A DNA stretch of 64,000 nucleotides from a virus (IMGVR_UViG_3300024269_000017), one strand, 5' to 3'; shown: positions 24,701-63,693, numbered from the stretch's first letter. Made by a program: numbers and translations. The notes: generated from the letters alone by a model not told the origin.

Positions 24701-24759
24701 ATTGTATAAATCGCATCAAATAAATCGTTTTGCAAATTACCATTTTTCTATTCTGCCAT
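18766..24759 (-). CDS. very large (~1998-codon) tail gene (Dit/Tal-like position after the tape measure) with >=15 in-frame TAGs; may be more than one gene
   Basis: all ORF-track fragments between 18805 and 24318 are in one frame; gaps stepped by hand (19747-19824, 21289-21459, 21688-22035, 23254-23289, 23737-23874, 24319-24759) contain only TAG; ATG at 24757-59 behind AAAGGAGATGAAAC; TAA at 18766-68; Ser-Tyr 21-nt tandem repeats near C-terminus. Confidence 0.4.
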
Positions 24760-24840
24760 CCATGTTTCATCTCCTTTTACTCAAAACACTTCTATCTTTT
24801 TATAGAAAAATCGTGTGATATATTAGCCGAAATAGACCAA

Positions 24841-39802: not shown

Positions 39803-40549
39803 TTAATGGATATTTTTCATCCAATCATTGGGCTTGCCATCGGGTTTACCTCCGGCCAAGCGAGACCGTATGTCTAAATCCCAACTAATCCATAAGCCAT
39901 ATCGTTCAATTAAATCATATAGCTAATAAACAGTTAGATCTAAACACTTATCTAGACTCATTGAATTTAATCCAATAGTAAGAATAGATACATAACGAGC
40001 TAACACGCTTCCTTCCCCTTCTCCTCGTAGCTGGGCTGCTCTCTAACGACCTTTCATTAGCTTGGCCGCAATTTGAGCGGCTCGCTCATTAGCAGGGTTG
40101 AAATTAGAATTCTATCCACCCGCAGTATTATTCATACCAGCCATATTTGTTAATACAGCCTAAAAAGCATCAAAATTATTTTCATCTAAAACAAAGTGGT
40201 GCTAAGTTTCAGCATTATTAAAATAGATGCTATGAGGAAGAAATTGAGCGGTATACCCAGGAAAAAGTAATACAAACATTGAAATCATTGCATTTCGTTT
40301 TTCATTTACGTTTTTCATTTCTGGGTCTGTTACCAACGTCATAAATATCTAAAAATTATTCATAGCCTATAGAGCAGAACTGCCCTATGGGTTTGCAGCT
40401 ATGATTATCTATTTATTGAAGCATAGTATTTGTAACGATGAAAAATACTATTCTTCGCCTAAGAAAGAAATTTCTCTAATAGTTGGCTAATGTAAACTTG
40501 TACCTAATTCTGGAATTGGGATATCGGTTCCAGCCATTAACTGCAACAT
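39803..40549 (-). CDS. 249-codon structural gene with 11 in-frame TAG codons
   Basis: hand-stepped every codon: ATG 40547-49 after GAGGGAGGGG RBS; TAGs at 40487, 40448, 40409, 40385, 40367, 40349, 40202, 40160, 40112, 40043, 39923; no TAA/TGA until TAA at 39803-05, which sits just before the RBS of the next gene. Confidence 0.6.
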
Positions 40550-40564
40550 GCATACCCCTCCCTC

Positions 40565-46311: not shown

Positions 46312-47919
46312 TTAATTAGCAGATTCCTTATTCTAAATAGTTTTTTCAGATTTCTGTCCATCTGGTTTTTCAGGACGACCGCCTTTATTTTCAGAGGAAG
46401 AACCTGTCTAAGAACTTTGAGCTTTCTTCTAAGCCTTCTATCCTAAGATGTCCTCACCATTCATTGTAGAACTCATAATCGGTGGGATCATAATTTCATA
46501 CAAGTGCAATACTTCATTTTCAAAGTGTGCAGTAGCAATAATAGCACTTTGAGAATGACCCATCGCAATCTGCGGTAGCATCTTGGAGTAACCAATCTGC
46601 ACTTGTTCCTTATACATCTTCGCAAGCTCGATGTAGTTGTAGACTGTCGTCTCCAACATATACACTCTAAAGTTATACTTCTTCTTACCGGGGAACTTGT
46701 GACGAACGATCTTGTTTAACATATTACCAAACTGTAGAATCAAATTGCGCATTGAAGCCTCATCATTTAAGATAGACTTTTCAAGAGCAATATTACCATC
46801 TGTATTAAACAAGTTCTAAGAAACACCAAATTGGTTATACAAAGTTCTTTCAACCTTTTCCAAATCATCGGTAGAGGTTGTAGTATTTTTATCCGCCAAG
46901 TCCGCAACAGAGGTATCCGCAAATGTAGTCATAACGTCTACACCAACCGCACGCTTCAACATCTGAACCGCATTGTTGTGAATATCTTTTGCTTCATCAA
47001 CGTCAAAAATCAAATCACCATTCTTATCAAGAGGAAGTTTCTGAATTACAATTTTCAACAATTTCTGCATGGTCTTGCGACGGTCTAAATCCTGCGCTGC
47101 ATCCAAATCCAAAATCGCGGGAATCGCATTTGCAAGAATTGGATAGTCACTACCATTCAGATTTAATTTAATCGCACAAGCGGGATCAAGTAAATACCAC
47201 CCAGCTTGAGAGCCAGATTCATCTTTAAGTTTGCCTTTCTTGTATAAAACATAACCTTTGGCAAACTCTTCTGGGAACATCTTTAAAATTCTAAGTCGCT
47301 GTTCAATAGTTGGGAACTTATCATCAAAGAACTTCATATTGAACTCAACGGCCGGCGAATCGCCAACCATATAACGACTGCGACAATAAGCAACTGGCAA
47401 TTCCTGCAAGGTCATGCCATTAGTGGTATCTACAATATAACCATAGTAGCAACCATTCTTAATAACCTAAAGGGCTACATTGCCGCACATGTATTTAATA
47501 TTTGAGTTATCTAAATAATTAAGAACCTTAGAAAACTCACTTAGAATTTTTTCTTCCTTGATAGAATCATCTTCAACATATGGAACAACATACCAGTCAT
47601 ATCTATACAAAAATGCAAAATATTTGCATAGACGTTCATAGATACCACTTACCTCATAGAAGTAATTTGATATTTCACGCAAGGTGTTATAATCCTTAGT
47701 AGCTAATGCGCGTAAAACCGCATTCTTGTCACCATATGTACGATTGGTCTTTTTTAAAGCACCCAAATCTAAAATAGCATCATCAAGGGTTTGTAGACCA
47801 ATACGAATCTTGCTAAAATCAAGTGGCTCATTATTTTCCGGATCAATATAATCAATATCCCTGCGAGGCGGAGTTAATGCAAAACCTTTAGCACGGATTT
47901 CATCCTATCTTCTTCGCAA
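46312..47919 (-). CDS. portal protein (~535 codons) with >=8 in-frame TAGs; TTG start
   Basis: fragments 46438-46812, 46816-47415, 47467-47766 share one frame; hand-stepped ends: TTG at 47917-19 after AAGGAGG RBS with TAG as codon 5; C-terminal TAGs at 46438, 46429, 46408, 46333; TAA at 46312-14. Confidence 0.55.
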
Positions 47920-47932
47920 CCGTCACACCTCC

Positions 47933-55202: not shown

Positions 55203-55646
55203 ATGAGAATGAAGATCTGGTTCGATATGGATGGTACGATTGCTGACCTGTATGCGGTTGATGGATGGCTTCAGATGCTCCGAGCTTACGACCCTGCACC
55301 CTACGCAATGGCAAAGCCCATGCACCACATGGCAACGCTGGCAAGGATGCTCAACAGGGCACAGGCACAGGGACACGAACTCTGCATCATCAGCTGGTGT
55401 AGCAAGGAAAGCACTCTTGCCTATGATGAAGCAGTCCGAGCCGCCAAGCTCGCATGGCTCGCCAAGCATCTGCCTTCTGTTCATTGGGATGTGGTGGAGA
55501 TCGTTCCCTATGGGCAGAACAAGTGGGACACCTGCAAGAGCGGCATTCTCTTCGATGATGAAGAGCGCAACCGCAACGCATGGGAACAGGGCAAGGCGTT
55601 CACTCCCGAAACTATCTTCGCCACTCTCTCTGCACTCACTCGCTGA
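55203..55646 (+). CDS. HAD-superfamily 5'(3')-deoxyribonucleotidase-like protein (147 aa)
   Basis: N-terminal KIWFDMDGTIADL DxD motif and later ILFDDE motif typical of NT5C-type nucleotidases; AAAGAGGTAATGAGA-ATG. Confidence 0.55.
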   Translation: MRMKIWFDMDGTIADLYAVDGWLQMLRAYDPAPYAMAKPMHHMATLARMLNRAQAQGHELCIISWCSKESTLAYDEAVRAAKLAWLAKHLPSVHWDVVEIVPYGQNKWDTCKSGILFDDEERNRNAWEQGKAFTPETIFATLSALTR

Positions 55647-55960: not shown

Positions 55961-56400
55961 CTCTGGCCGGCTGGTGCACGGGCGCCAAGTCTGTGCACCA
56001 GCCGTATTCCCGCACGCATAGGCCATGCATAATTATTCATCGACAATGCATAAACATACAAAAACAAGCCCCATCCCAAAACAGAGCCACTCTCGTCTTC
56101 GCTTGCGCGGGCGGAATTTCACCGCCGTGGATGTATGGGGTGGAGTGATCGCGTAGGCTAGGGGGACGATTTGAACGTCTCTTCTACTTGCGTAGCGTGC
56201 TAACCGAGCTGACACTACCCGTTCGCCGCGATCTGGAAGCTCTTGATACCTGCGAGAGTTTTGCCACCGAGTAATCGCGAATCCTCAGTGCCCGTAGTGG
56301 TTGTGCTTCCCTCAACCTCTGATAGTATTATACTACAAGAGGGATCAAATGTCAATACCTTTTTGCAGAAAAAGAAAAAAAAGTTTTTTTCAAAAACCTA

Positions 56401-56429
56401 TTGACATTCCTGCCCACCTATGCTATAAT
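56401..56429 (+). promoter_or_regulatory. early promoter P4
   Basis: aaaaagtttttttcaaaaacctaTTGACAttcc-N-TATAAT. Confidence 0.6.
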
Positions 56430-56486
56430 AGTCTCAGTTGGTGAGGGAAACACCGACAAGACAAAATGACAAAGGTGGTAATCACA

Positions 56487-57056
56487 ATGAATGCACTGGA
56501 ACTGATGGATCTCTACTACGACCGCATGTGCGCTTGCACTTCCACTTCTGGACGCAACAACAACTTCAAAAAGATGCTTGCTCTGTGGGAAGAAAATGAA
56601 GTTGTTCGTGCGGTTTGGACTTTTGTCAAGGATGCCTATTTCATCGTTGATCGGTTTGTCAAGGGCGTTGTTGACAAGGTAAAGTCTTTCTTTAAGCCGA
56701 CCGCAAACGTGGTTTACTCCTGCGACAAGGTAGAGGGCAATCAGCTTGTGTATCTCCTGCGGCTGCTTAATGAAGAGGGCAATCTGGTTTGGTCAAAGGT
56801 CGGCACGACCACCCGAACCATTGAAGAACGCATGAGCGAACACCTGCGCTACTATCGCAAGTATGGTATCAAAACGATCGAAGTTACTAAAGTTTGGGAT
56901 TGCGGAGAAGTTGACGCAGAAGGTTTGGAAAGTTTCCTGCGTTCCAAGTACATCCGCAAGCATCCGAACACTTTCCAGAAAAATGATCGTTTCTATCAAG
57001 TTGAGTTTGATCTGGAACAGGCTGAAAAGTGGGTTGACTTCTATCTGAACGATTGA
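56487..57056 (+). CDS. T5orf172 / GIY-YIG-like domain protein (~190 aa)
   Basis: LVYLLRLL...WSKVGTTTRTIEERMSEH...DAEGLESFLRSKY pattern resembles T5orf172 domain; GGTGG RBS 8 nt before ATG 56487 (an upstream ATG at 56466 is also in frame). Confidence 0.5.
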   Translation: MNALELMDLYYDRMCACTSTSGRNNNFKKMLALWEENEVVRAVWTFVKDAYFIVDRFVKGVVDKVKSFFKPTANVVYSCDKVEGNQLVYLLRLLNEEGNLVWSKVGTTTRTIEERMSEHLRYYRKYGIKTIEVTKVWDCGEVDAEGLESFLRSKYIRKHPNTFQKNDRFYQVEFDLEQAEKWVDFYLND

Positions 57057-57597: not shown

Positions 57598-57626
57598 TTG
57601 ACAAACCGACCGACCTGTGGTATACT
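57598..57626 (+). promoter_or_regulatory. early promoter P6
   Basis: gcTTGACAaaccgaccgacctgtggTATACT with A-tract UP element. Confidence 0.6.
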
Positions 57627-57697
57627 TAAGATGTTCCAAGGGAAGGAACAAAACAAAACGACAGCGCCAAGAGCGCGGAAAGAAAGAGGTAATCGCT

Positions 57698-58066
57698 ATG
57701 ACTACTATCAATGTGAAGAATGAGAAGCTGACCTACGTGACCGCCCTGACCTACGCCATTGAGAACGGCAACCTGCCCACCGAGATCGCGGAAAAGCTGA
57801 TTGCCCTGCGTACTCAGCAGGAGAAGCGTAACAGCGGTGAGAAGAAGCCGACCAAGGTTCAGGAAGCCAACGTTGGCATCAAGCAGGTTATCCTGACTGC
57901 CCTTGAGGGTCAGGAAGCCAAGACCGTAAGCGAGATTCAGACCCTTGCTCCCGAGCTGGGCGAGCTGAGCAATCAGAAGGTTGCAAGCCTTGTCCGTCAG
58001 CTTGTGGAAGAGGGCAAGCTGACCCGAATCGAGGAGAAGCGCAAGGCGTATTTCCGCCTTGCCTGA
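57698..58066 (+). CDS. winged-helix DNA-binding protein, paralog 1 (122 aa)
   Basis: AGAGGTAATCGCT-ATG; C-terminal SNQKVASLVRQLVEEGKLTRIEEKRKAYF shared with 61254 and 63165 genes. Confidence 0.6.
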   Translation: MTTINVKNEKLTYVTALTYAIENGNLPTEIAEKLIALRTQQEKRNSGEKKPTKVQEANVGIKQVILTALEGQEAKTVSEIQTLAPELGELSNQKVASLVRQLVEEGKLTRIEEKRKAYFRLA

Positions 58067-58113
58067 CCCTCGCGGGGTGGTGAAAAAAACTTTCACCACC
58101 CCGAAAAAACCCC

Positions 58114-58142
58114 TTGACAACCTGCCTATCCTGTGCTATAAT
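58114..58142 (+). promoter_or_regulatory. early promoter P7
   Basis: ccccTTGACAacctgcctatcctgtgcTATAAT. Confidence 0.6.
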
Positions 58143-58187
58143 AGTATCAACGAAAGGGCAAGAGCCCGAACAACGAGGAGGATCCCC

Positions 58188-58445
58188 ATGAAGAACACCA
58201 TCGCTGCCACCCTGATCGCCAACTACGGTTTCGAAGCCCAGTCCAACTGCCTGTTCACTGGCAAGGGCTCTTGGCTGGCCTCTCACGAGACCGTCAAGGT
58301 CACCTTCCACGGTGACATGGTCACCATCGACCACTACCGCTTCTTCTGGGATGGCGGTGATGTGGAGTGGGAACGCTCCACGGTGGTCACCTGCCACCTC
58401 TCCCGACTGTGGGAGAACCTCCCCGAGTGGGTGCTCAGAGCCTGA
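58188..58445 (+). CDS. hypothetical protein (85 aa)
   Basis: GAGGAGGATCCCC-ATG; TGA stop. Confidence 0.55.
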   Translation: MKNTIAATLIANYGFEAQSNCLFTGKGSWLASHETVKVTFHGDMVTIDHYRFFWDGGDVEWERSTVVTCHLSRLWENLPEWVLRA

Positions 58446-58461
58446 GCCCCACTCTTTTTTT
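58425..58461 (+). terminator. rho-independent terminator
   Basis: GAGTGGG...CCCACTC stem with TTTTTTT; followed by a second GC hairpin. Confidence 0.5.
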
Positions 58462-58563
58462 ATTCGCCGGCGCGTGGGCGGGCGCTGCGCTTGCCCACTC
58501 GCCGAATTTCCGCGAGGAGCACCAGCCAGCAAAAAATAATTTGAAAAACTTGCAAAAAAGGTA

Positions 58564-58592
58564 TTGACAAATCATCCCGAATCTGCTATAAT
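58564..58592 (+). promoter_or_regulatory. early promoter P8
   Basis: gtaTTGACAaatcatcccgaatctgcTATAAT; near-identical to P18. Confidence 0.6.
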
Positions 58593-58642
58593 TAAACCAT
58601 CGAAAGGGAACACAGAGTCCCAACAGAAAGGAAGTTACTACT

Positions 58643-58894
58643 ATGATGACTGCCAAAGAAGCTAAGACCATGACCACCAACTACCTGACCGCCGAAGCTG
58701 ACAAGCACCTGCAGAAGATTGAAGACACCATTCAGATCTATGCCAGCAAGGGCAACACCTCCATGTATTACAGCAATGGTCTCAGCGGTGCCGACCCTCG
58801 CATCCAGTCCAAGGTATACAACACTATGGTTGAAGCAGGTTACAAGGTTCGTTGGTGTGAATCCAGCCTGCACATCAGCTGGGCAGATGCCTAA
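58643..58894 (+). CDS. hypothetical protein (83 aa)
   Basis: ORF track; aaaggaagttactact-ATG leader; TAA stop. Confidence 0.6.
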   Translation: MMTAKEAKTMTTNYLTAEADKHLQKIEDTIQIYASKGNTSMYYSNGLSGADPRIQSKVYNTMVEAGYKVRWCESSLHISWADA

Positions 58895-58913
58895 AAAAAG
58901 TTGCTCAGAGGGG

Positions 58914-58942
58914 TTGACAAATCCCTCTGAGCATGGTATAAT
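58914..58942 (+). promoter_or_regulatory. early promoter P9 with inverted repeat flanking -35
   Basis: GCTCAGAGGGG-TTGACAA-ATCCCCTCTGAGC then catgg-TATAAT. Confidence 0.6.
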
Positions 58943-58979
58943 AAGTACATCAAAAGGAACAAGAAAGGAAGTAACTACA

Positions 58980-59318
58980 ATGACTAAGAAGATTTCTCTG
59001 AATGACTGGACCTACATCGGCAAGTACAATCCTGCGGCCAAGTGGCTTCGTCCCCTCTGCTCCTACTCTCTGACCGAAGCTGGTGCCTATTCTGCAGATG
59101 GCAACCCCGACTATCGCCGCGATTGCAAGATTAGCTGGCCTGTGTATCTGCTCCTGTTCCTGCCTGTGCATCTACTTCAGTTGCTGGTGTGCCTGTGGGA
59201 TGGCGGCTTGAAAGAATTTGAAATTGCAAGTCGCCACATTGGGCATGATTACATCACTGCACATGGCGACAACAGCGGACGCTATCAGATGGCAAAAGAA
59301 ATTTGGGAAAAGGCTTGA
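58980..59318 (+). CDS. protein with C-terminal transmembrane segment (112 aa)
   Basis: aaaggaagtaactaca-ATG; WPVYLLLFLPVHLLQLLVCLW hydrophobic stretch; its TGA lies inside the -35 of P10. Confidence 0.55.
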   Translation: MTKKISLNDWTYIGKYNPAAKWLRPLCSYSLTEAGAYSADGNPDYRRDCKISWPVYLLLFLPVHLLQLLVCLWDGGLKEFEIASRHIGHDYITAHGDNSGRYQMAKEIWEKA

Positions 59319-59343
59319 CAAAGCCTTTCCCCTGTGGTATAAT
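59315..59343 (+). promoter_or_regulatory. early promoter P10
   Basis: gcTTGACAaagcctttcccctgtggTATAAT. Confidence 0.55.
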
Positions 59344-59371
59344 AAATGTATCAAATGAAGGAGTGATAAAC

Positions 59372-59545
59372 ATGGGTATCATGATCGGTGCTATTGTTGC
59401 AAGTCAGACCGCTATGAGAGTGGCGGCAATGAATGCCATGAAAAAAAATCTGGAAAATCAGAAAAAAGCTGTTGACAAACAGCCCAAAGTGTGCTATACT
59501 AATAATGTCGAAAGGGACAACAGAAAGGAAGGTAAACAAAAATGA
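59372..59545 (+). CDS. 57-aa peptide whose 3' half is embedded in promoter P11
   Basis: GAAGGAGTGATAAAC-ATG strong RBS; hydrophobic N-terminus; TGA overlaps the ATG of 59542 gene. Confidence 0.4.
   Translation: MGIMIGAIVASQTAMRVAAMNAMKKNLENQKKAVDKQPKVCYTNNVERDNRKEGKQK
59472..59500 (+). promoter_or_regulatory. early promoter P11
   Basis: gTTGACAaacagcccaaagtgtgcTATACT then aataatgtcgaaagggacaac. Confidence 0.6.
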
Positions 59546-59856
59546 TGAAGATCGAAATGACCAAACACGCTATGGTAGACCGCATTGACCGCTGTGTGTA
59601 CATTGCACAGAAGATTGGCTTCGGTGACAAGATTGTGTGCGAAGGTTTCCGCAGAGACAAGGGCACTCGGCAGTGCCTGTCCGAAACTGGTGTGCTGATT
59701 GTCAAGATGCCGGAAAGCGAAACCATGGTGACTGCTTACATTCCCACTCTTGAACAGGCTGGCATGATTTACAAGTCCGCAGGCTTGCACATGCCGAACT
59801 GGATGGCACAGAAAATCAAGAAGAATCAGAAGTATGCAAAGGGCTGTCCTGTGTGA
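59542..59856 (+). CDS. hypothetical protein (104 aa)
   Basis: ORF track; AAAGGAAGGTAAACAAAA-ATG. Confidence 0.6.
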   Translation: MMKIEMTKHAMVDRIDRCVYIAQKIGFGDKIVCEGFRRDKGTRQCLSETGVLIVKMPESETMVTAYIPTLEQAGMIYKSAGLHMPNWMAQKIKKNQKYAKGCPV

Positions 59857-59891
59857 CAGCCCTTTGCAAGAAAAAAATTTTCAAAAAGGTA

Positions 59892-59920
59892 TTGACAACC
59901 TGCCGAACCTATGGTATAAT
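59892..59920 (+). promoter_or_regulatory. early promoter P12
   Basis: aaaaattttcaaaaaggtaTTGACAacctgccgaacctatggTATAAT. Confidence 0.6.
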
Positions 59921-59952
59921 AAGTACAACGAAAGACGAAAGGAAGTAACACA

Positions 59953-60426
59953 ATGAACACTCTGCTTCTCACCTTCATCCTGCTGAACATCGCCAATGTT
60001 ATCATTCAGACCGTCAAGAGCATTGCAACCATCAAATGCGGAAAAGGGGTCGCCGCGATTGTTAACGCTGTTGCCTTCGGACTCTACACTGTGGTCACTG
60101 TCTACATGATGTGCGATTTGCCTCTTGCCACCAAGGCGCTGATTGTCGCAGGCTGTAACCTTGTGGGTGTGTATGTGGTCAAGTATTTTGAAGAAAAGGC
60201 AAGAAAAGACAAACTCTGGAAAGTCGAAGTCACCATTCCTGCCGAACAAGCAGAACAGATGATTGAAGATTGCAAATACTATGGATTCACTTACAACTAT
60301 GTGAACATCGAAAAGTATTTCTTGTTTAACTTCTATTGTCCCACTCAGCAGGACAGTCTGAATGTTAAGAAACTGTTACAGAGCTATGATGCAAAATACT
60401 TTGTGACTGAAAGCAAAAATTTGTGA
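59953..60426 (+). CDS. membrane protein, 2 predicted TM helices plus soluble C-terminal domain (157 aa)
   Basis: ORF track; aaaggaagtaacaca-ATG; hydrophobic N-terminal ~80 aa. Confidence 0.6.
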   Translation: MNTLLLTFILLNIANVIIQTVKSIATIKCGKGVAAIVNAVAFGLYTVVTVYMMCDLPLATKALIVAGCNLVGVYVVKYFEEKARKDKLWKVEVTIPAEQAEQMIEDCKYYGFTYNYVNIEKYFLFNFYCPTQQDSLNVKKLLQSYDAKYFVTESKNL

Positions 60427-60434
60427 GAAAGGGG

Positions 60435-60463
60435 TTGACAACCCCTCTCACATGTGGTATAAT
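60435..60463 (+). promoter_or_regulatory. early promoter P13 with inverted repeat flanking -35
   Basis: GTGAGAAAGGGG-TTGACAA-CCCCTCTCAC then atgtgg-TATAAT. Confidence 0.6.
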
Positions 60464-60493
60464 AAGTACATCAAAAGGAAAGAGGTAATGAAC

Positions 60494-60766
60494 ATGAGAG
60501 CAACTGGTATTGTAAGAAGAGTCGATGAACTGGGTCGCATTGTTATCCCCAAGGAAATCCGCAGGAACCTGAACATCAAAGAGGGCGATCCCCTTGAGAT
60601 GTATCTGGACAAGGAATACGGGCTTGTGATGAAGCCCTACCATGAAGAGCATCTGAGCTTTGACCGCCTGCAGTCTGAGTGGGAAAGCCTGAGCACCGCA
60701 AAGCGGCAGGAACTGATCTGCGAAATGGTGAACCACCTCGATGACCCCATCCGCTGTGAAGAGTGA
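60494..60766 (+). CDS. AbrB/MazE/SpoVT-family (swapped-hairpin) transcriptional regulator (~90 aa)
   Basis: N-terminus MRATGIVRRVDELGRIVIPKEIRRNLNIKEGDPLE matches AbrB-N domain pattern; AAAGAGGTAATGAAC-ATG. Confidence 0.6.
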   Translation: MRATGIVRRVDELGRIVIPKEIRRNLNIKEGDPLEMYLDKEYGLVMKPYHEEHLSFDRLQSEWESLSTAKRQELICEMVNHLDDPIRCEE

Positions 60767-60786
60767 CCGCAAGGTCACTCTTTTTT
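60761..60786 (+). terminator. rho-independent terminator (first of tandem pair)
   Basis: GAGTGACCgcaaGGTCACTC + TTTTTT. Confidence 0.7.
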
Positions 60787-60793
60787 CGCCCGC

Positions 60794-60820
60794 GCGCCCA
60801 CGAGCGTGGGCGCCGGTTTT
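60794..60820 (+). terminator. second tandem terminator
   Basis: GCGCCCACgagcGTGGGCGC cgg TTTT. Confidence 0.6.
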
Positions 60821-60912
60821 CCCGCGTATCCTTCCATTATACCATTTTTCGAGCAATTTGTCAATAGGCAAACTGCACAAACTTTTTCCCGAAACTTTGT
60901 GCAATCTGTCAA

Positions 60913-60941
60913 TAGACATTTGGGGTCTGATACTGTATAAT
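60913..60941 (+). promoter_or_regulatory. variant promoter (TAGACA-17-TATAAT) with conserved upstream TTTGTGCAATCTGTCAA element and palindrome
   Basis: caaTAGACAtttggggtctgatactgTATAATagataatgtcaggaggg; same architecture recurs at 62818. Confidence 0.5.
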
Positions 60942-61022
60942 AGATAATGTCAGGAGGGCACTGAGGTGATGCCGAGTGAAGCTGGTCGACAAAACTTCTT
61001 CAAAAAAAGTTTTGAAAAACCC

Positions 61023-61051
61023 TTGACAAAGCCGCCAAGATGTGATATACT
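61023..61051 (+). promoter_or_regulatory. early promoter P14b (drives ~90-nt leader RNA)
   Basis: cccTTGACAaagccgccaagatgtgaTATACT. Confidence 0.55.
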
Positions 61052-61143
61052 GATAGTGTCAAGAGGGCAAGGAACTGCAAGAGGAACCCTTCGGCGCTGA
61101 AGCGCACAGGATAAAAACTCAAAAAAAAAGTTTCAAAAACCCC

Positions 61144-61172
61144 TTGACAAACACCGCAAGGTGTGGTACAAT
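61144..61172 (+). promoter_or_regulatory. early promoter P14c
   Basis: ccccTTGACAaacaccgcaaggtgtggTACAAT. Confidence 0.55.
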
Positions 61173-61253
61173 AAGGATGTCGAAAGGGCAAGGCGCCAGC
61201 CCCACTCGACAGTCACTAACACCAATCGACAAGAAAGAAAGAGGTAATGAATC

Positions 61254-61607
61254 ATGGAAAAGATGACTTATGTGAAGGCTCTGGAAGTTGCTCTGAACTG
61301 CGAAGCTCTGTCTGCCGAAGTGCGTGAGAAGCTGTCTGCTCTGCGTGACCAGCAGGTCAAGCGTAACTCTGCGGAGAAGAAGCCCACCAAGACCCAGCAG
61401 GCGAATGAGGGCGTGAAGTCCCATGTGCTGGAAGTGCTGGCTTCCTGCGCCCAGCCTGTGACTGTGTCTGAACTGATGCAGGCTGATGAAGAGCTGTCCC
61501 AGCTCTCCAATCAGAAGGTCGCTTCGCTGGTTCGCCAGCTGGTGGAAGCTGGCAAGGTTCAGCGACTGGAAGAGAAGCGCAAGGCTTACTTCACTCTGGT
61601 GAAGTGA
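61254..61607 (+). CDS. winged-helix DNA-binding protein, paralog 2 (117 aa)
   Basis: ORF track; AGAGGTAATGAATC-ATG; shares SNQKVASLVRQLVEAGK...EEKRKAYF with paralogs. Confidence 0.65.
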   Translation: MEKMTYVKALEVALNCEALSAEVREKLSALRDQQVKRNSAEKKPTKTQQANEGVKSHVLEVLASCAQPVTVSELMQADEELSQLSNQKVASLVRQLVEAGKVQRLEEKRKAYFTLVK

Positions 61608-61667
61608 CCTTGCGGGGCAGGGGTAAAACCCTGCCCCATCTTCCCGAAAAAAAGTTTCAAAAAGGTA

Positions 61668-61696
61668 TTGACAAACAGCCCAACATCTGCTATAAT
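61668..61696 (+). promoter_or_regulatory. early promoter P15
   Basis: aaaaagtttcaaaaaggtaTTGACAaacagcccaacatctgcTATAAT. Confidence 0.6.
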
Positions 61697-61740
61697 AGAT
61701 AATGTCGAAAGGCAATAGAACAAGAAAGAGGTAATGCAAA

Positions 61741-62397
61741 ATGAATCGCCACTTCTACATTCTGATGGATACTGAAACTGCCAACGGTCTGGATTGCCCC
61801 ATCAACTACAATACCGCATGGTCTGTAATTGACCAGCACGGCAACACCTACGAAAACTTCAATTTCATCAACCGCGACATTTTCTTTGACCGTCCCGAAC
61901 TCATGCAGTCCGCATACTACGCCCACAAGATTCCGCAGTATCTTGAACAGATTGAACGCGGCGAAATCAAGGTTGCAACGTGGTACGAAATCCGCAAGGC
62001 GTTCCGCGACTGTTGCGAAAAGTACAACATCAAGGCAGTTATCGCCCACAATGCCCGATTCGACTATCGCTCCTGCACGATGACCCAGCGTTACGAAACC
62101 TGCTCCAAGTATCGCTACTTCTTCCCGAAGGGCGTTGAAATTTGGGACACGCTGGCAATGGCTCGTGATGTGGTCGCCCCGATGCCCACTTACCGCAAGT
62201 GGTGCGAAACCAACGGTTTCACCTTGAAGAACGGACAGCCCCGACTGACCGCCGAAATCCTGTTCCGCTTCATCTCCAAGGACATTGACTTTGTGGAAGA
62301 ACACAAGGCAATGGAAGATGTGAACATCGAAAAGGAAATCTTTTGGTACTGCATCCGCAAGCACAAGGCAATGCGTCGAAAGGCTTTCAAGGACTGA
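61741..62397 (+). CDS. DnaQ-like DEDDh 3'-5' exonuclease (218 aa)
   Basis: YILMDTETANG (Exo I), AHNARFDYR (Exo II), EEHKAMEDV (Exo III H-x4-D) motif pattern; AGAGGTAATGCAAA-ATG. Confidence 0.6.
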   Translation: MNRHFYILMDTETANGLDCPINYNTAWSVIDQHGNTYENFNFINRDIFFDRPELMQSAYYAHKIPQYLEQIERGEIKVATWYEIRKAFRDCCEKYNIKAVIAHNARFDYRSCTMTQRYETCSKYRYFFPKGVEIWDTLAMARDVVAPMPTYRKWCETNGFTLKNGQPRLTAEILFRFISKDIDFVEEHKAMEDVNIEKEIFWYCIRKHKAMRRKAFKD

Positions 62398-62404
62398 AAA
62401 AGTC

Positions 62405-62433
62405 CTTGACAGCCGCCCCAAAGTGTGATATAA
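62405..62433 (+). promoter_or_regulatory. early promoter P16
   Basis: gtccTTGACAgccgccccaaagtgtgaTATAAT. Confidence 0.6.
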
Positions 62434-62465
62434 TAAGTACATCAAAAGGAAAGAGGTAATTGACC

Positions 62466-62702
62466 ATGACTCAGTTTCAGTATGAAGTAAATGTTTACGA
62501 AGAAGACCACGTCCTGTCCTGCAAGACCAACAATCCCCGCACCGCCTGCCAGTTTATGCTGGATCATGCCGACTGCTATCTTGATGTCATCAACGGTTTT
62601 ACTGGTGAAGTGCTCGCTGTGATGAACCATGAGAATGCTTACTGTCAAGAGGATTTCGGGCTGATGCTTCTCGGCTATATGACCGAAACAATTTGGGGCT
62701 GA
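62466..62702 (+). CDS. hypothetical protein (78 aa)
   Basis: AAAGAGGTAATTGACC-ATG; TGA stop. Confidence 0.55.
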   Translation: MTQFQYEVNVYEEDHVLSCKTNNPRTACQFMLDHADCYLDVINGFTGEVLAVMNHENAYCQEDFGLMLLGYMTETIWG

Positions 62703-62728
62703 CCCTTCGGGGTTGGCTCTTTTCTTTT
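62697..62728 (+). terminator. rho-independent terminator (first of tandem pair)
   Basis: GGCTGACCCttcgGGGTTGGCT + CTTTTCTTTT. Confidence 0.6.
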
Positions 62729-62731
62729 GAG

Positions 62732-62763
62732 CCGGTCGTGCGCGGGCCACACGACCGGTTTTT
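62732..62763 (+). terminator. second tandem terminator
   Basis: CCGGTCGTGcgcgggccaCACGACCGG + TTTTT. Confidence 0.7.
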
Positions 62764-62817
62764 CCGCAATGGGCAGATCTACCAAGAAATTCGCTGAAAA
62801 TTTGTGCATTTTGCCAA

Positions 62818-62846
62818 TAGACATTTTATCCCGAAAGTGGTATACT
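62818..62846 (+). promoter_or_regulatory. variant promoter (TAGACA-17-TATACT), second copy
   Basis: tttgtgcattttgccaaTAGACAttttatcccgaaagtggTATACTaataatgtcaggagggg. Confidence 0.5.
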
Positions 62847-62938
62847 AATAATGTCAGGAGGGGAGGCCAAGAAACCGAGAGGCGGCCGACTCTCAGGAAG
62901 TAGAGGAAGAAAACTTGAAAAAAAGTTTCCGAAACCTC

Positions 62939-62967
62939 TTGACAAACCACTGACCCTGTGGTATAAT
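62939..62967 (+). promoter_or_regulatory. early promoter P17b (drives ~95-nt structured leader RNA)
   Basis: ctcTTGACAaaccactgaccctgtggTATAAT. Confidence 0.55.
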
Positions 62968-63090
62968 AAGGGTGTCAGGTGAGGGAAGCAACTGACAGTC
63001 GCTTAGCCAAGGTAGCCTGCGGAGTGGGTGCGCAACACTCCATGGTTAGACCCTGTGCAAGCGAAGCGAAAAAAAAGTTTGCGAAACCCC

Positions 63091-63119
63091 TTGACAAACA
63101 ACTGAATAGGTGCTATAAT
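63091..63119 (+). promoter_or_regulatory. early promoter P17c
   Basis: ccccTTGACAaacaactgaataggtgcTATAAT. Confidence 0.6.
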
Positions 63120-63164
63120 AAGAGTGTCCTAAGGGACAAGACAAAAAGAAAGAGGTAATGAATC

Positions 63165-63572
63165 ATGATGAAGTTCACTAAGAAGGTTGCTCTGGAAGTC
63201 GCTATCAATGCTATCGAGAACTCCACCCTGCCCAACTGGTCTTTCACTGAGGGCGAGGAAACCCTGACCATCTCCAAAGCGGAAGCCATCGAGAAGCTCC
63301 AGAAGATGATTGAGCAGTTGGAGGCTAAGTCCAACGCTCCCAAGAAGCCCACTAAGGTGCAGGAAGCCAACGAGGGTGTCAAGGACATCATCAAGGCTGT
63401 GCTGGAAGGTCAGTCCCCCATGACTGTCTCCGAAATCATGACCCACTCTGCGGAACTGAGTGCCCTGTCCAACCAGAAGGTCGCCTCTCTGGTGCGCCAG
63501 ATGGTCGAGGCTGGCGTGCTGGTTCGCACTGAGGAAAAGCGCAAGGCTTTCTTCGCCCTCGCTCAGGGCTGA
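63165..63572 (+). CDS. winged-helix DNA-binding protein, paralog 3 (135 aa)
   Basis: ORF track; AGAGGTAATGAATC-ATG; shares SNQKVASLVRQMVEAG...EEKRKAFF. Confidence 0.65.
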   Translation: MMKFTKKVALEVAINAIENSTLPNWSFTEGEETLTISKAEAIEKLQKMIEQLEAKSNAPKKPTKVQEANEGVKDIIKAVLEGQSPMTVSEIMTHSAELSALSNQKVASLVRQMVEAGVLVRTEEKRKAFFALAQG

Positions 63573-63576
63573 GCCT

Positions 63577-63601
63577 GAGACCCCGAAAGGGGTCTCTTTT
63601 T
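63577..63601 (+). terminator. rho-independent terminator (first of tandem pair)
   Basis: GAGACCCCgaaaGGGGTCTC + TTTTT. Confidence 0.7.
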
Positions 63602-63607
63602 CTTGGG

Positions 63608-63638
63608 CTGCTCGCGGACGGGCGCCGCGAGCAGTTTT
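63608..63638 (+). terminator. second tandem terminator
   Basis: CTGCTCGCGGacgggcgCCGCGAGCAG + TTTT. Confidence 0.6.
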
Positions 63639-63693
63639 CCGCGATACACTAGACCCACCGAAAAATTTTCTTGAAAAATCGGCATTTTAGGGG

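What the first reader, a model, noticed from the sequence alone, without database searches (positions are those of the whole stretch)
57598..63572. Three paralogous winged-helix proteins, two of them behind identical triple-promoter cassettes with short structured leader RNAs
Genes 57698, 61254 and 63165 share a C-terminal SNQKVASLVRQ(L/M)VE(E/A)GK...EEKRKA(Y/F)F winged-helix and a KKPTK(V/T)Q(E/Q)AN linker, but have divergent N-termini. Upstream of 61254 and of 63165 the same architecture recurs. It is double terminator, then a variant TAGACA promoter with upstream palindrome, then a ~90-nt RNA, then a standard promoter, then a ~60-95-nt RNA with hairpins, then a standard promoter, then the gene. 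The paralog family with a variable N-domain looks like a diversified DNA-binding module, possibly regulators or specificity or anti-defence factors. The intervening short RNAs have no ORF and could be sRNAs.
Basis: partly seen in the sequence, partly recalled or inferred. Interest (0 to 1): 0.6.

Follow-up and report, generated by a model that had tools for sequence, protein, structure and literature searches.

The report
Stacked early promoters with RNA slots
In the early-gene region of an uncultivated gut phage, three related small DNA-binding proteins are encoded, two of them behind stacks of three strong promoters whose upstream members transcribe short non-coding hairpin RNAs; the layout recurs in hundreds of related phages, where the same slots sometimes hold tRNA genes, but its function is untested.

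Summary
The three genes are full-length paralogs (50-60% identity). The two upstream regions share an architecture, not a sequence.

Both regions read: two terminator hairpins, an operator-flanked variant promoter (P1), a non-coding slot, a consensus promoter, a second slot, a consensus promoter, then the gene. None of this is chance: the window has 32 consensus promoter matches against 1.5 expected.

The layout is conserved across about 300 related loci. There, 2-4 paralogs occur per early region, and tandem promoters precede 70 of 106 paralog units against 58 of 748 other genes.

AlphaFold gives two N-terminal helices plus a C-terminal winged helix of the generic BlaI/MarR/ArsR type. The recognition helix and wing are the most conserved parts, so "diversified specificity" is not supported.

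Three of the four slot sequences have homologues that keep a hairpin through compensatory changes. None matches Rfam, and none is followed by a terminator. In relatives the same slot holds tRNA-Lys or tRNA-Cys.

Best reading: stacked-promoter early units carrying small-RNA cassettes ahead of a DNA-binding regulator. The function of both is unproven.

Context: a phage of gut Clostridia, related to Geobacillus virus E3 and SPbeta, whose late genes read through TAG.

The parts
57598..57626 (+). Single consensus promoter of paralog 1 (TTGACA-N17-TATACT, with TG extended -10 and an A-rich UP region)
57633..57697 (+). 65-nt 5' UTR of paralog 1. It carries a 5' hairpin GUUCC-AAGGGAA-GGAAC and a second hairpin GCGC-CAAGA-GCGC. 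The transcription start is inferred.
57698..58066 (+). Winged-helix paralog 1 (122 aa)
60760..60820 (+). Pair of terminator-like hairpins after the AbrB/MazE-like gene. Stems lie at 60760-60781 and 60794-60813, each followed by a T-run.
   Evidence: sequence; the same layout recurs in relatives
60836..60864 (-). Perfect consensus promoter on the minus strand, back to back with P1 and pointing into the terminators. Present in copy A only.
   Evidence: the ATTATACCA..TTGTCAA motif occurs in 89 of 205 related units
60874..60903 (.). 30-bp palindrome TGCACAAA-N14-TTTGTGCA, lying between the two divergent promoters. Candidate operator.
   Evidence: 137 distinct instances in related loci, with N16 between the 7-mers dominant
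60913..60941 (+). P1 of unit A: TAGACA-N17-TATAAT. It has no A-rich UP element; the operator sits in that position.
60948..61000 (+). Slot RNA1A (about 53 nt, non-coding). It starts UGUCAGGAGGG. No structural support.
61023..61051 (+). P2 of unit A (TTGACA-N17-TATACT)
61056..61120 (+). Slot RNA2A (about 65 nt). It has conserved single-stranded blocks GCAAGAGGAACCC and GGAUAAAAACUC around a hairpin. The hairpin reads GGCGC/GCGC here, GGUGC/GCAC in L078 and CCGC/GCGG in L149.
61144..61172 (+). P3 of unit A (TTGACA-N17-TACAAT)
61254..61607 (+). Winged-helix paralog 2 (117 aa). AF2 gives helices at 6-14 and 21-39, then a winged helix over 46-115.
62695..62763 (+). Pair of terminator-like hairpins before unit B. 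Stems lie at 62695-62720 and 62732-62758, each followed by a T-run.
   Evidence: sequence
62779..62808 (.). Degenerate operator CTACCAA-N16-TTGTGCA. The same variant occurs in L069, L073 and L074.
62818..62846 (+). P1 of unit B (TAGACA-N17-TATACT)
62851..62917 (+). Slot RNA1B (67 nt). Its hairpin at 62875-62897 is kept in 4 distinct homologues: 96% of cells are paired, against 30-46% when the partners are slid.
62939..62967 (+). P2 of unit B (TTGACA-N17-TATAAT)
62972..63070 (+). Slot RNA2B (99 nt): a 5' hairpin plus a roughly 70-nt irregular hairpin. In 8 distinct homologues 86.6% of cells are paired, against 29-38% when slid. Nine pairs change on both sides.
63091..63119 (+). P3 of unit B (TTGACA-N17-TATAAT)
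63165..63572 (+). Winged-helix paralog 3 (135 aa, with a roughly 15-residue N-terminal insertion)
63577..63640 (+). Pair of terminator-like hairpins closing unit B
   Evidence: sequence

Best explanation
Positions 54-64 kb are the host-sigma-A-driven early region of a large lytic phage of gut Clostridia. The region resembles the SPO1 host-takeover module.

Shown:
- The region encodes three paralogous proteins of about 120 aa, each with two N-terminal helices and a C-terminal winged helix.
- Two of these genes open transcription units that start just after a pair of terminators.
- Each of those two units has three co-directional promoters. The first is an upstream promoter without a UP element, flanked by an operator (P1). 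The other two are full consensus cassettes.
- What P1 and P2 transcribe is non-coding. Each slot starts with the same 5' hairpin and purine-rich, Shine-Dalgarno-like motif as the early mRNAs. Each slot also carries a GC-rich hairpin.

Inferred mechanism:
1. Stacking the promoters gives very high early synthesis of the winged-helix proteins. It does so in two tiers, one constitutive and one under operator control.
2. The slots are promoter-equipped small-RNA cassettes. They are co-transcribed with the winged-helix mRNA and released, if at all, by processing. Relatives carry tRNA genes in the same place, and tRNAs need no terminator either.
3. The winged-helix proteins are DNA-binding regulators of the early programme. 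The best candidate target is the 30-bp palindrome that sits where P1 would otherwise have a UP element.
For: Promoters and terminators.

Parallel architecture, also kept in L061, L064, L065 and L077-L080.

Conservation across the clade:
- 2-4 paralogs per early region.
- Tandem consensus promoters precede 70 of 106 winged-helix units against 58 of 748 other genes.
- 160 of 205 distinct units have at least 2 promoters within 450 nt.

Fold: AF2 pLDDT 90, with best PDB matches SmtB, MarR and Fur winged helices. Some family members pass the Pfam Penicillinase_R threshold.

RNA elements:
- Covariation in RNA2B and RNA1B, and a compensated hairpin in RNA2A.
- G-U pairs occur on the + strand only, for example L061 UGUCAG/CUGAUG.
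- The slots are GC-richer than their loci, 0.47 against 0.40.

Slots behave as RNA genes:
- tRNA-Cys lies between P1 and the last promoter in L030.
- tRNA-Lys does so in L136 and L143.
- Modules move between slots: the window's RNA2A is the first slot of the other unit in L078.
- Modules come and go while the gene stays: L065 and L079 lack RNA2B.

Operator: 137 distinct palindromes, 35% of them within the 12% of sequence that lies upstream of winged-helix genes.
Against: - No terminator follows any slot, so discrete RNAs are not shown.
- Folding-energy z-scores of 116 slots do not differ from random segments (-0.90 against -0.68, p = 0.059).
- RNA1A and RNA2A fold no better than shuffles.
- The covariation rests on 3-8 sequences per family. 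Part of the RNA1B signal may be a register shift.
- The palindrome also precedes many other early genes, and no test links it to the winged-helix proteins.
- Trans-acting RNAs do not obviously need to sit upstream of this one gene family.
- In the AT-rich clade many slots are only 30-45 nt. They look like a 5' UTR with a ribosome-binding site, an ATG and 2-8 codons.
Confidence: 0.45

Rival explanations
1. The slots are purely cis-acting leaders. They would be 5' stabilisers (a terminal stem-loop plus a Shine-Dalgarno-like purine tract that holds a ribosome) and/or RNase III or RNase Y processing sites. Their job would be to raise the yield of winged-helix mRNA, as with T7 A1-A3 plus the R0.3 site, or as in SP82 early RNA. 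They would have no function in trans.
For: - No terminators lie between the slots and the gene.
- Every slot and every early mRNA starts with the same UGUC..(G)AGGGAA..GACA-type 5' hairpin and purine motif.
- RNA2B is a roughly 70-nt irregular rod of the kind that RNase III cuts.
- The slots are tightly associated with one gene family.
- Shine-Dalgarno sequences without a start codon stabilise B. subtilis and SP82 RNAs (PMC7509114).
Against: - Real tRNA genes occupy the same slots in relatives.
- Modules are swapped between units, or absent, without loss of the gene.
- Each slot has its own full promoter, which a leader does not need.
- Predicted accessibility of the ribosome-binding site is the same for P1, P2 and P3 transcripts.
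Confidence: 0.27
2. The slots are neutral leftovers. Promoter-plus-5'-UTR cassettes were duplicated, or lost their ORFs by recombination between the near-identical cassettes. Only the extra promoters matter, if anything does.
For: - The modal spacing of 98 nt equals one cassette.
- Short slots in the AT-rich clade keep a ribosome-binding site, an ATG and 2-8 codons (MRSPPKRK*, MT*).
- There are 112 clusters among 200 distinct slots, which means rapid turnover.
- Folding-energy z-scores do not differ from controls.
Against: - Hairpins are kept by compensatory changes, and the flanking single-stranded blocks are conserved, across phages whose proteins are only 40-70% identical.
- RNA2B is recovered in L054, whose winged-helix gene is 46% identical.
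- Slot GC content is raised.
Confidence: 0.13
3. The stacks work at the DNA level. They would act as sinks for host RNA polymerase, or as arrays of binding sites through which the abundant winged-helix proteins shut off early promoters. The transcripts would be by-products.
For: - The relatives' early regions contain 1656 distinct consensus promoters.
- The recognition helix is conserved among the paralogs.
- The operator replaces the UP element at P1.
Against: The compensatory changes and the + strand G-U pairs point to selection on RNA. No repeated winged-helix site has been identified.
Confidence: 0.1
4. The slots encode small peptides, for example the 44-codon GTG ORF at 60966-61100.
For: GGAGG lies 8 nt upstream of GTG-ATG at 60966. 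The frame is open in L061 too.
Against: - The ORF runs straight through promoter P2, and its conservation is that of the promoter.
- Copy B has no start codon after its GGAGG.
- Relatives differ by 1- and 2-nt indels.
Confidence: 0.02

Closest known systems
Phage T7 early promoters A1, A2 and A3 with the R0.3 RNase III site (textbook knowledge, not tested here)
   Same: Three strong co-directional host-polymerase promoters, about 100-130 bp apart, lie ahead of the first early gene. The RNA between and after them is a non-coding structured leader.
   Different: - In T7 there is one stack, at the genome end. Here there are several stacks per genome, each ahead of a paralog of one protein family.
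- The first promoter here is flanked by an operator.
- Here the slots are variable cassettes that can be tRNAs.
- RNase III cleavage has not been tested.
SPO1 host-takeover module (PMC6873191; Stewart et al. 1998, cited there)
   Same: A region of about 10-12 kb holding many small early genes, with promoters and ribosome-binding sites typical of highly expressed genes, read by host sigma-A RNA polymerase.
   Different: - No protein homology was found. The winged-helix family is absent from cultured phages in INPHARED.
- As far as I know, SPO1 has not been described as having non-coding slots or a repeated winged-helix paralog.
- A location in a terminal redundancy could not be tested.
5' mRNA stabilisers of Firmicutes: terminal stem-loops, the SP82 polypurine stabiliser, STAB-SD (PMC7509114; Hue et al. 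1995, cited there)
   Same: A stem-loop close to the 5' end plus a Shine-Dalgarno-like purine tract with no start codon. This is exactly how each slot and each early mRNA begins here.
   Different: This is inferred from sequence only. It does not explain the separate promoters, the downstream GC-rich hairpins or the tRNAs in the same slots.
BlaI/MecI (Pfam Penicillinase_R) and MarR/ArsR/Fur winged-helix repressors
   Same: The same winged-helix fold, small size and likely dimeric binding to palindromes. The best sequence and fold matches fall in these families.
   Different: - The window's proteins score below the Pfam threshold.
- The domain order is reversed: the winged helix is C-terminal here and N-terminal in BlaI.
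- There is an invariant KKPTKxQxxN motif that I have not seen described for these families.
- There are 2-4 copies per phage.
- The genes sit in a lytic early region.
Phage-encoded tRNA genes and stop-codon-recoded phages (for example phAss-1, PMC10607447)
   Same: - The terminase large subunit is 45% identical to that of phAss-1.
- Late genes here read through TAG.
- Relatives place tRNA-Lys, tRNA-Cys and tRNA-like elements in the slots.
   Different: The window has no tRNA. Its slot RNAs are not tRNA-like. No suppressor tRNA was found in the 64 kb.

Membership tests
Pfam Penicillinase_R (BlaI/MecI winged-helix repressors) | Score at or above the Pfam gathering threshold (22.6 bits) | tested here: not met
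   17.3, 17.4 and 18.3 bits for the three paralogs. Distant family members P0153 and P0133 do pass, at 30.2 and 25.7 bits.
Pfam Penicillinase_R (BlaI/MecI winged-helix repressors) | N-terminal winged helix followed by a C-terminal dimerisation domain | tested here: not met
   The AF2 model has the helices first (6-39) and the winged helix at 46-115.
Winged helix-turn-helix DNA-binding fold (MarR/ArsR/Fur type) | Three-helix bundle plus a beta-hairpin wing | tested here: met
   AF2 pLDDT 90: H46-64, H71-82, H86-98, E102-107, E110-115. Foldseek against PDB finds SmtB, MJ223, MarR and Fur at E of 2e-3 to 2e-2, with TM-scores of 0.4-0.5.
Winged helix-turn-helix DNA-binding fold (MarR/ArsR/Fur type) | Sequence-specific DNA binding | not testable with these tools
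   Needs EMSA or footprinting. The palindrome is only a candidate target.
   2-4 copies per early region. GTDB hits occur only on contigs binned into MAGs, none in an isolate genome. Only one metagenomic record matches in INPHARED.
Sigma-70/sigma-A promoter | -35 TTGACA, 17-bp spacer, -10 TATAAT, TG extension, A-rich UP element | tested here: met
   P1 has TAGACA and no UP element. Activity is not testable here.
Free-standing bacterial sRNA gene | Its own promoter and its own intrinsic terminator | tested here: not met
   A promoter is present, but no + strand terminator lies between P1 and the genes.
Any Rfam family, including tRNA, tmRNA and 6S RNA | A covariance-model match | tested here: not met
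   Positions 52-64 kb at E <= 1 give only four chance-level hits, none in the slots. ARAGORN finds none, even at relaxed thresholds. Relatives give only tRNAs.
Structured RNA element (conserved secondary structure) | Base pairs kept through compensatory substitutions | tested here: met
   - RNA2B: 8 sequences, 86.6% paired against 29-38% when slid, 9 pairs with double changes, 0 of 500 shuffles as good.
- RNA1B: 4 sequences, 96% paired against 30-46%.
- RNA2A: 3 sequences.
- RNA1A: no evidence.
- Sample sizes are small.
T7-type tandem early promoters with an RNase III-processed leader | Three co-directional strong promoters ahead of an early gene | tested here: met
T7-type tandem early promoters with an RNase III-processed leader | RNase III cleavage of the leader | not testable with these tools
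   RNA2B is an irregular roughly 70-nt hairpin. Cleavage needs an enzyme assay.
SPO1-type host-takeover module | A cluster of small early genes, each with a strong promoter and ribosome-binding site | tested here: met
   18 promoter-proximal ORFs in 54-64 kb. Compare the description in PMC6873191.
SPO1-type host-takeover module | Homology to SPO1 gp37-60, or a demonstrated host shut-off | tested here: not met
   No cultured-phage homologue of the winged-helix family was found. PHROG hits are to families of unknown function. Shut-off is not testable.

The most novel reading that the evidence does not exclude
The slots are a fast-evolving platform for early phage small RNAs that a whole clade of gut Clostridia phages expresses together with a dedicated winged-helix protein.

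What the slots hold across the clade:
- tRNA-Lys(UUU) and tRNA-Cys.
- tRNA-like elements, one with a CUAG anticodon loop.
- More than 100 unrelated families of structured RNA.

On this reading the slots are an RNA arsenal for host takeover, for countering tRNA-targeting defences, or for switching the genetic code before the TAG-recoded late genes are translated. The window's RNA1B, RNA2A and RNA2B would then be new functional RNA classes.
Probability: 0.2. Interest if true: 0.8.

Novelty: new variant of a known kind. Interest (0 to 1): 0.55.

Why it matters
If the reading holds, a large and so far uncharacterised protein family has a fixed genomic signature. The family comprises 3858 clusters at 50% identity, almost all from uncultivated gut phages. 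Its signature is an insulated unit that starts at an operator-controlled promoter and carries interchangeable small-RNA cassettes.

That gives three things:
- A concrete, cloneable test bed of about 500 bp for early-gene control in phages of gut Clostridia, for which no genetics exists.
- Several candidate new RNA families that are missing from Rfam.
- A possible link to how stop-codon-recoded phages stage their infection.

If the slots turn out to be only leaders, the finding is a Gram-positive, multi-copy analogue of the T7 A1-A3 arrangement, and of modest interest.

Tried and rejected
- Known RNA families: Rfam on the window and on 16 related loci found nothing but tRNAs. ARAGORN on the window found nothing, even at relaxed thresholds.
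- Near-identical phage DNA in INPHARED: none.
- More RNA2B members: a DNA pattern scan of IMG/VR found none. The covariance model R1 found only 9 members in about 1.5 Mb of related loci.
- Thermodynamic test: slots do not differ from random segments. My first script for this timed out.
- Ribosome-binding-site sequestration by the long leaders: no difference between the P1, P2 and P3 transcripts. Rejected.
- Small-peptide reading of the slots: rejected.
- Spo0A-box idea:
  - TGTCGAA lies at a fixed offset after five window promoters.
  - It is not enriched in the window overall (7 against 6.4 expected).
  - It occurs in only 26 of 1656 related promoters.
  - Not a general feature.
- Co-occurrence of the palindrome with winged-helix genes in IMG/VR: inconclusive, because the stretches fetched were short and chance matches are expected.
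- A specific functional family for the proteins:
  - NCBIfam gave nothing.
  - PADLOC gave only weak winged-helix matches to Csa3 and CARF proteins.
  - BFVD gave only uncharacterised phage proteins.
  - A PDB sequence search gave nothing significant.
  - Multi-domain relatives add only generic winged-helix Pfam families.

Full report
WHAT IS IN THE SEQUENCE

The window falls into two parts.
- Positions 1-52 kb are 29-43% G+C and coded on the minus strand.
- Positions 54-64 kb are 48-50% G+C and coded on the plus strand.

The second part is saturated with perfect sigma-70/sigma-A promoters: TTGACA, a 17-bp spacer, TATAAT, usually a TG extension and an A-rich upstream tract.
- The whole window has 32 matches at one mismatch or fewer, against 1.5 expected.
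- Positions 56-64 kb have 30 promoter-like sites, against 6.2 +/- 3.3 expected.
- Nearly every small ORF has its own promoter, a 35-75-nt 5' UTR and a strong ribosome-binding site, AAAGAGGTAA.

THE THREE PROTEINS

ORFs 57698-58066, 61254-61607 and 63165-63572 align from end to end.
- Identity is 58-60% in MAFFT and 50-60% in BLASTP.
- The N-termini are alignable, not divergent. The third protein has one insertion of about 15 residues.

Conservation in 39 homologues:
- The invariant positions are T5, A9, L10, L27, K43-P44-T45, Q48, N51, T70, Q87, R104 and A111 (numbering of the 61254 protein).
- The SNQKVASLVRQ helix and the EEKRKAYF wing are nearly invariant.

Structure:
- AlphaFold2 with that alignment gives pLDDT 90. 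It shows two N-terminal helices (6-14, 21-39), the KKPTK loop and a canonical winged helix (46-115).
- Foldseek against PDB finds only generic winged-helix regulators (SmtB/ArsR, MJ223, MarR, Fur/PerR/Zur), with E of 2e-3 or worse.

Family searches give no specific assignment:
- Pfam scores are below threshold: Penicillinase_R at 17-18 bits against 22.6.
- NCBIfam gives nothing.
- PADLOC matches only the winged-helix parts of Csa3 and CARF proteins.
- BFVD returns uncharacterised phage proteins.

A profile search of 1.84 billion representatives finds 3858 clusters at E <= 1e-3 and 1846 at 1e-10.
- Nearly all are stand-alone proteins of 110-135 aa.
- A few long proteins carry two or three copies of the module.
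- Two distant members pass the Penicillinase_R threshold.

The fold claim therefore holds. Because the DNA-reading parts are the most conserved, the idea of a diversified specificity module does not.

THE TWO UPSTREAM REGIONS

Both regions have the same order of parts.
1. Two GC-rich hairpins, each followed by a T-run.
2. A 30-bp palindrome. It is TGCACAAA-N14-TTTGTGCA at 60874-60903. The second copy is degenerate: CTACCAA-N16-TTGTGCA at 62779-62808.
3. P1, with TAGACA as its -35 and no A-rich UP element.
4. A non-coding slot.
5. A full consensus promoter, P2.
6. A second slot.
7. A full consensus promoter, P3.
8. The 5' UTR and the gene.

Further points:
- The two copies are not identical. 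Mean column identity is 74%, carried by the promoters, and the slot sequences are unrelated.
- Copy A alone also has a perfect minus-strand promoter at 60836-60864. It lies back to back with P1, with the palindrome between the two -35 boxes.
- No + strand terminator lies between P1 and the gene.
- The paralog at 57698 has a single promoter and a long 5' UTR.

CONSERVATION ELSEWHERE

The family is absent from cultured phages. One metagenomic record matches in INPHARED. The family is common in metagenomes.

I collected about 300 related loci. Two to four paralogs lie in each early region.

Tandem promoters:
- Consensus promoters 200 nt or less apart precede 70 of 106 distinct paralog units, against 58 of 748 other promoter-proximal ORFs. 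The odds ratio is about 23. The units are phylogenetically related, so no p-value is claimed.
- In the larger set, 160 of 205 distinct units have at least two consensus promoters within 450 nt.
- The closest full relatives (L061, L064, L065, L077-L080) keep the three-promoter layout in front of both orthologues.

The control region is also conserved:
- The palindrome half-site occurs upstream of 133 of 205 units, and the divergent minus-strand promoter upstream of 89 of 205.
- The full palindrome is not specific to these genes. There are 137 distinct instances, and the spacing is fixed in most.
- 48 of them lie within 700 nt upstream of a paralog. That zone is 12% of the sequence.
- The rest precede other early units with the same layout of terminator, operator and variant promoter.
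- The palindrome therefore marks the start of early transcription units in general.

ARE THE SLOTS RNA ELEMENTS?

RNA2B (62972-63070):
- It has homologues in eight distinct phages, including L054, whose paralog is only 46% identical.
- On the MAFFT alignment, the structure derived from the window's MFE fold is 86.6% paired. When the 3' partners are slid, 29-38% is paired.
- Nine pairs change on both sides, against 0-3 when slid. No shuffle in 500 reaches the observed values.
- The apical helix is 100% paired, with four of six pairs compensated.
- Caveat: the structure was derived from one of the aligned sequences.
- G-U pairs, for example in L061 and L064, are allowed only on the + strand.

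RNA1B (62851-62917): its hairpin is 96% paired in four distinct sequences, against 30-46% when slid. Part of the signal may be a one-base register shift.

RNA2A (61056-61120): it has conserved single-stranded blocks around a hairpin. The hairpin reads GGCGC/GCGC, GGUGC/GCAC or CCGC/GCGG in three phages.

RNA1A: it has only a near-identical homologue and folds no better than shuffles.

Evidence against a general claim:
- Folding-energy z-scores of 116 slots of 55 nt or more equal those of random segments of the same length (-0.90 against -0.68, p = 0.059).
- The slots are, however, GC-richer than their loci: 0.47 against 0.40, and richer in 77 of 116 cases.

No Rfam family matches.

The slots are not coding.
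- The only ORFs run through promoters.
- Copy B lacks a start codon.
- Close relatives differ by 1- and 2-nt indels.

WHAT THE RELATIVES ADD

- In L030 a tRNA-Cys gene lies exactly between an operator-flanked P1 and the last promoter of a paralog.
- In L136 and L143 a tRNA-Lys(UUU) gene lies between two promoters.
- L150 has a weak tRNA-like element (Rfam 29.9 bits) with CUAG in an 8-nt anticodon loop.
- L070 has a 115-nt element with an 8-bp acceptor stem, a canonical T-arm and CCA.
- L061 has a T-loop-like GGGTTCAAATCCC in the slot that holds RNA2A in the window.
- The 200 distinct slots range from 29 to 258 nt and fall into 112 clusters.
- Modules move between units. The window's RNA2A is the first slot of the other unit in L078.
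- Modules can be missing. L065 and L079 lack RNA2B.
- In the AT-rich clade many slots are only a 5' UTR with a ribosome-binding site, an ATG and 2-8 codons.
- All slots and all early mRNAs start with a 5' hairpin of the UGUC...GACA type. Its loop or flank is a purine-rich, Shine-Dalgarno-like tract: GAAAGG, AGGAGGG or GGUGAGGGAA.

INTERPRETATION

Shown:
- the architecture;
- its conservation and its enrichment at this gene family;
- the fold;
- the non-coding nature of the slots;
- a compensated hairpin in three of the four slots.

Inferred:
1. The stack gives very high and two-tiered early expression.
2. The slots are small-RNA cassettes co-transcribed with the gene and released by processing, as the tRNAs in the same position must be.
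3. The proteins regulate early transcription, with the palindrome as the best candidate site.

I put 0.45 on this package. The main rival, at 0.27, is that the slots are only leaders.
- They would be terminal stem-loop plus Shine-Dalgarno-type stabilisers and nuclease sites. This would resemble the T7 A1-A3/R0.3 leader (textbook knowledge) and SP82 early RNA, where a polypurine tract stabilises RNA without translation (PMC7509114).
- A test of one cis model, sequestration of the ribosome-binding site in the long transcripts, was negative.

Decayed cassettes (0.13), DNA-level sinks or binding arrays (0.10) and peptides (0.02) follow.

COMPARISON WITH KNOWN SYSTEMS

- As a whole, the region works like the SPO1 host-takeover module, which has small early genes with strong promoters and ribosome-binding sites (PMC6873191). 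There is no homology to it.
- The stacks work like T7 A1-A3.
- The proteins have the fold of BlaI/MarR/ArsR repressors. They fail the Penicillinase_R threshold, and their domain order is the reverse of BlaI.
- They are not a single-copy temperate repressor.
- I found no description of this arrangement in the paper library. That library is incomplete.
- I rate the finding as a new variant of a known kind.

CONTEXT: WHICH PHAGE

- The terminase large subunit is 47-48% identical to those of Geobacillus virus E3 and of 134-142-kb Enterococcus phages, and 45% identical to that of phAss-1.
- It is more distantly related to SPbeta-like YonF.
- Relatives carry YonG_N proteins.
- MAG bins that contain the family are mostly Lachnospiraceae, Oscillospiraceae and other Clostridia.

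TAG read-through in the late genes:
- On the minus strand, stop-free stretches of 450 nt or more add up to 37.6 kb with the standard code. They add up to 49.5 kb if TAG is read through, against 40.2 kb for TGA and 43.9 kb for TAA.
- Positions 24880-36255 become one frame of 3792 codons with 42 in-frame TAGs.
- Translations with TAG read as Gln match PHROG profiles from end to end: the portal protein at E = 1e-79, and phrog_4051 at E = 5e-33.
- The 18 early genes of the window end in TGA (16) or TAA (2), never in TAG.
- phAss-1 is published as recoding TAG to Gln (PMC10607447).
- No tRNA lies in the window.

This context makes small RNAs expressed early more interesting. It does not show that the window's slots take part in the code switch.

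Noticed in passing
window 1-52300, minus strand (for example 24880-36255, 18766-24780, 39803-40564, 46312-47922): The late genes read through TAG.
- Stop-free sequence rises from 37.6 to 49.5 kb if TAG is not a stop.
- One frame of 3792 codons holds 42 in-frame TAGs.
- Translations with TAG read as Gln match the portal and phrog_4051 profiles from end to end.
- Some late genes (504-7817, the core of the terminase large subunit) have no TAG.
- The 18 early genes end in TGA or TAA only.
-.
   Followed up: yes
window, about 52-54 kb: G+C content jumps from 29-43% (late region, minus strand) to 48-50% (early region, plus strand), and GC skew changes sign. In the AT-rich sister clade (L001-L017) the whole locus is 34-35%.
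   Followed up: partly
window 60874-60903 and 62779-62808; 137 distinct instances in L001-L156: The 30-bp palindrome TGCACAAA-N14-TTTGTGCA has a fixed spacing and often a TTTCCCGAAA centre. It marks the start of many early transcription units in the whole clade, not only those of the winged-helix genes. The protein that binds it is unknown.
   Followed up: partly
window 60836-60864 (-): A perfect consensus promoter points leftwards into the terminator pair and antisense to the AbrB/MazE-like gene at 60494-60766. The motif is conserved in 89 of 205 related units. In L030 the hairpin it faces is followed by a U-run on that strand, which would give a tiny RNA.
   Followed up: partly
L030 2157-2232; L136; L143; L150 2204-2277; L070 10900-11014; L061 9818-9902: Relatives carry tRNA or tRNA-like elements in the slots upstream of winged-helix genes.
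- L030: tRNA-Cys.
- L136 and L143: tRNA-Lys(UUU).
- L150: a weak tRNA-like element with a CUAG anticodon loop.
- L070: a 115-nt element with an 8-bp acceptor stem, a T-arm and CCA.
- L061: a T-loop-like motif.
-.
   Followed up: partly
L001 about 9830-9870; L005 about 15250-15290 (AT-rich clade): Short slots look like complete 5' UTRs with a ribosome-binding site and an ATG followed by only 2-8 codons (MRSPPKRK*, MT*). They could be start-stop mini-ORFs or gene remnants.
   Followed up: no
window 55167, 59506, 61178, 61703, 63934: TGTCGAA, the Spo0A-box consensus, lies at the same offset (5-6 nt after the -10) in five early promoters. It is not enriched in the window overall and is rare in relatives, at 26 of 1656 promoters.
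   Followed up: yes
window 61056-61120 compared with L078 931-999: The same RNA module sits in slot 2 of the unit of paralog 2 in the window, and in slot 1 of the unit of paralog 3 in L078. The promoter-plus-RNA cassettes are therefore shuffled between units.
   Followed up: partly
proteins P0135 (661 aa), P0136 (1394 aa), P0153, P0201, P0249: Long proteins carry two or three tandem copies of the KKPTK-plus-winged-helix module. One has an N-terminal Sel1 repeat.
   Followed up: partly
window 60494-60766, 61741-62397, 56466-57056, 55203-55646: Neighbouring early genes:
- 60494-60766: AbrB/MazE-type SpoVT domain protein.
- 61741-62397: DEDDh exonuclease-like protein. It is syntenic with paralog 2 in relatives.
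- 56466-57056: T5orf172 domain protein.
- 55203-55646: NT5C-type deoxyribonucleotidase.
-.
   Followed up: partly
window 56327-56429: A back-to-back pair of perfect promoters (56355-56327 on the minus strand, 56401-56429 on the plus strand) surrounds an A/T palindrome. The 5' UTR of the downstream gene carries the same GGUGAGGGAA hairpin-loop motif as RNA2B.
   Followed up: no
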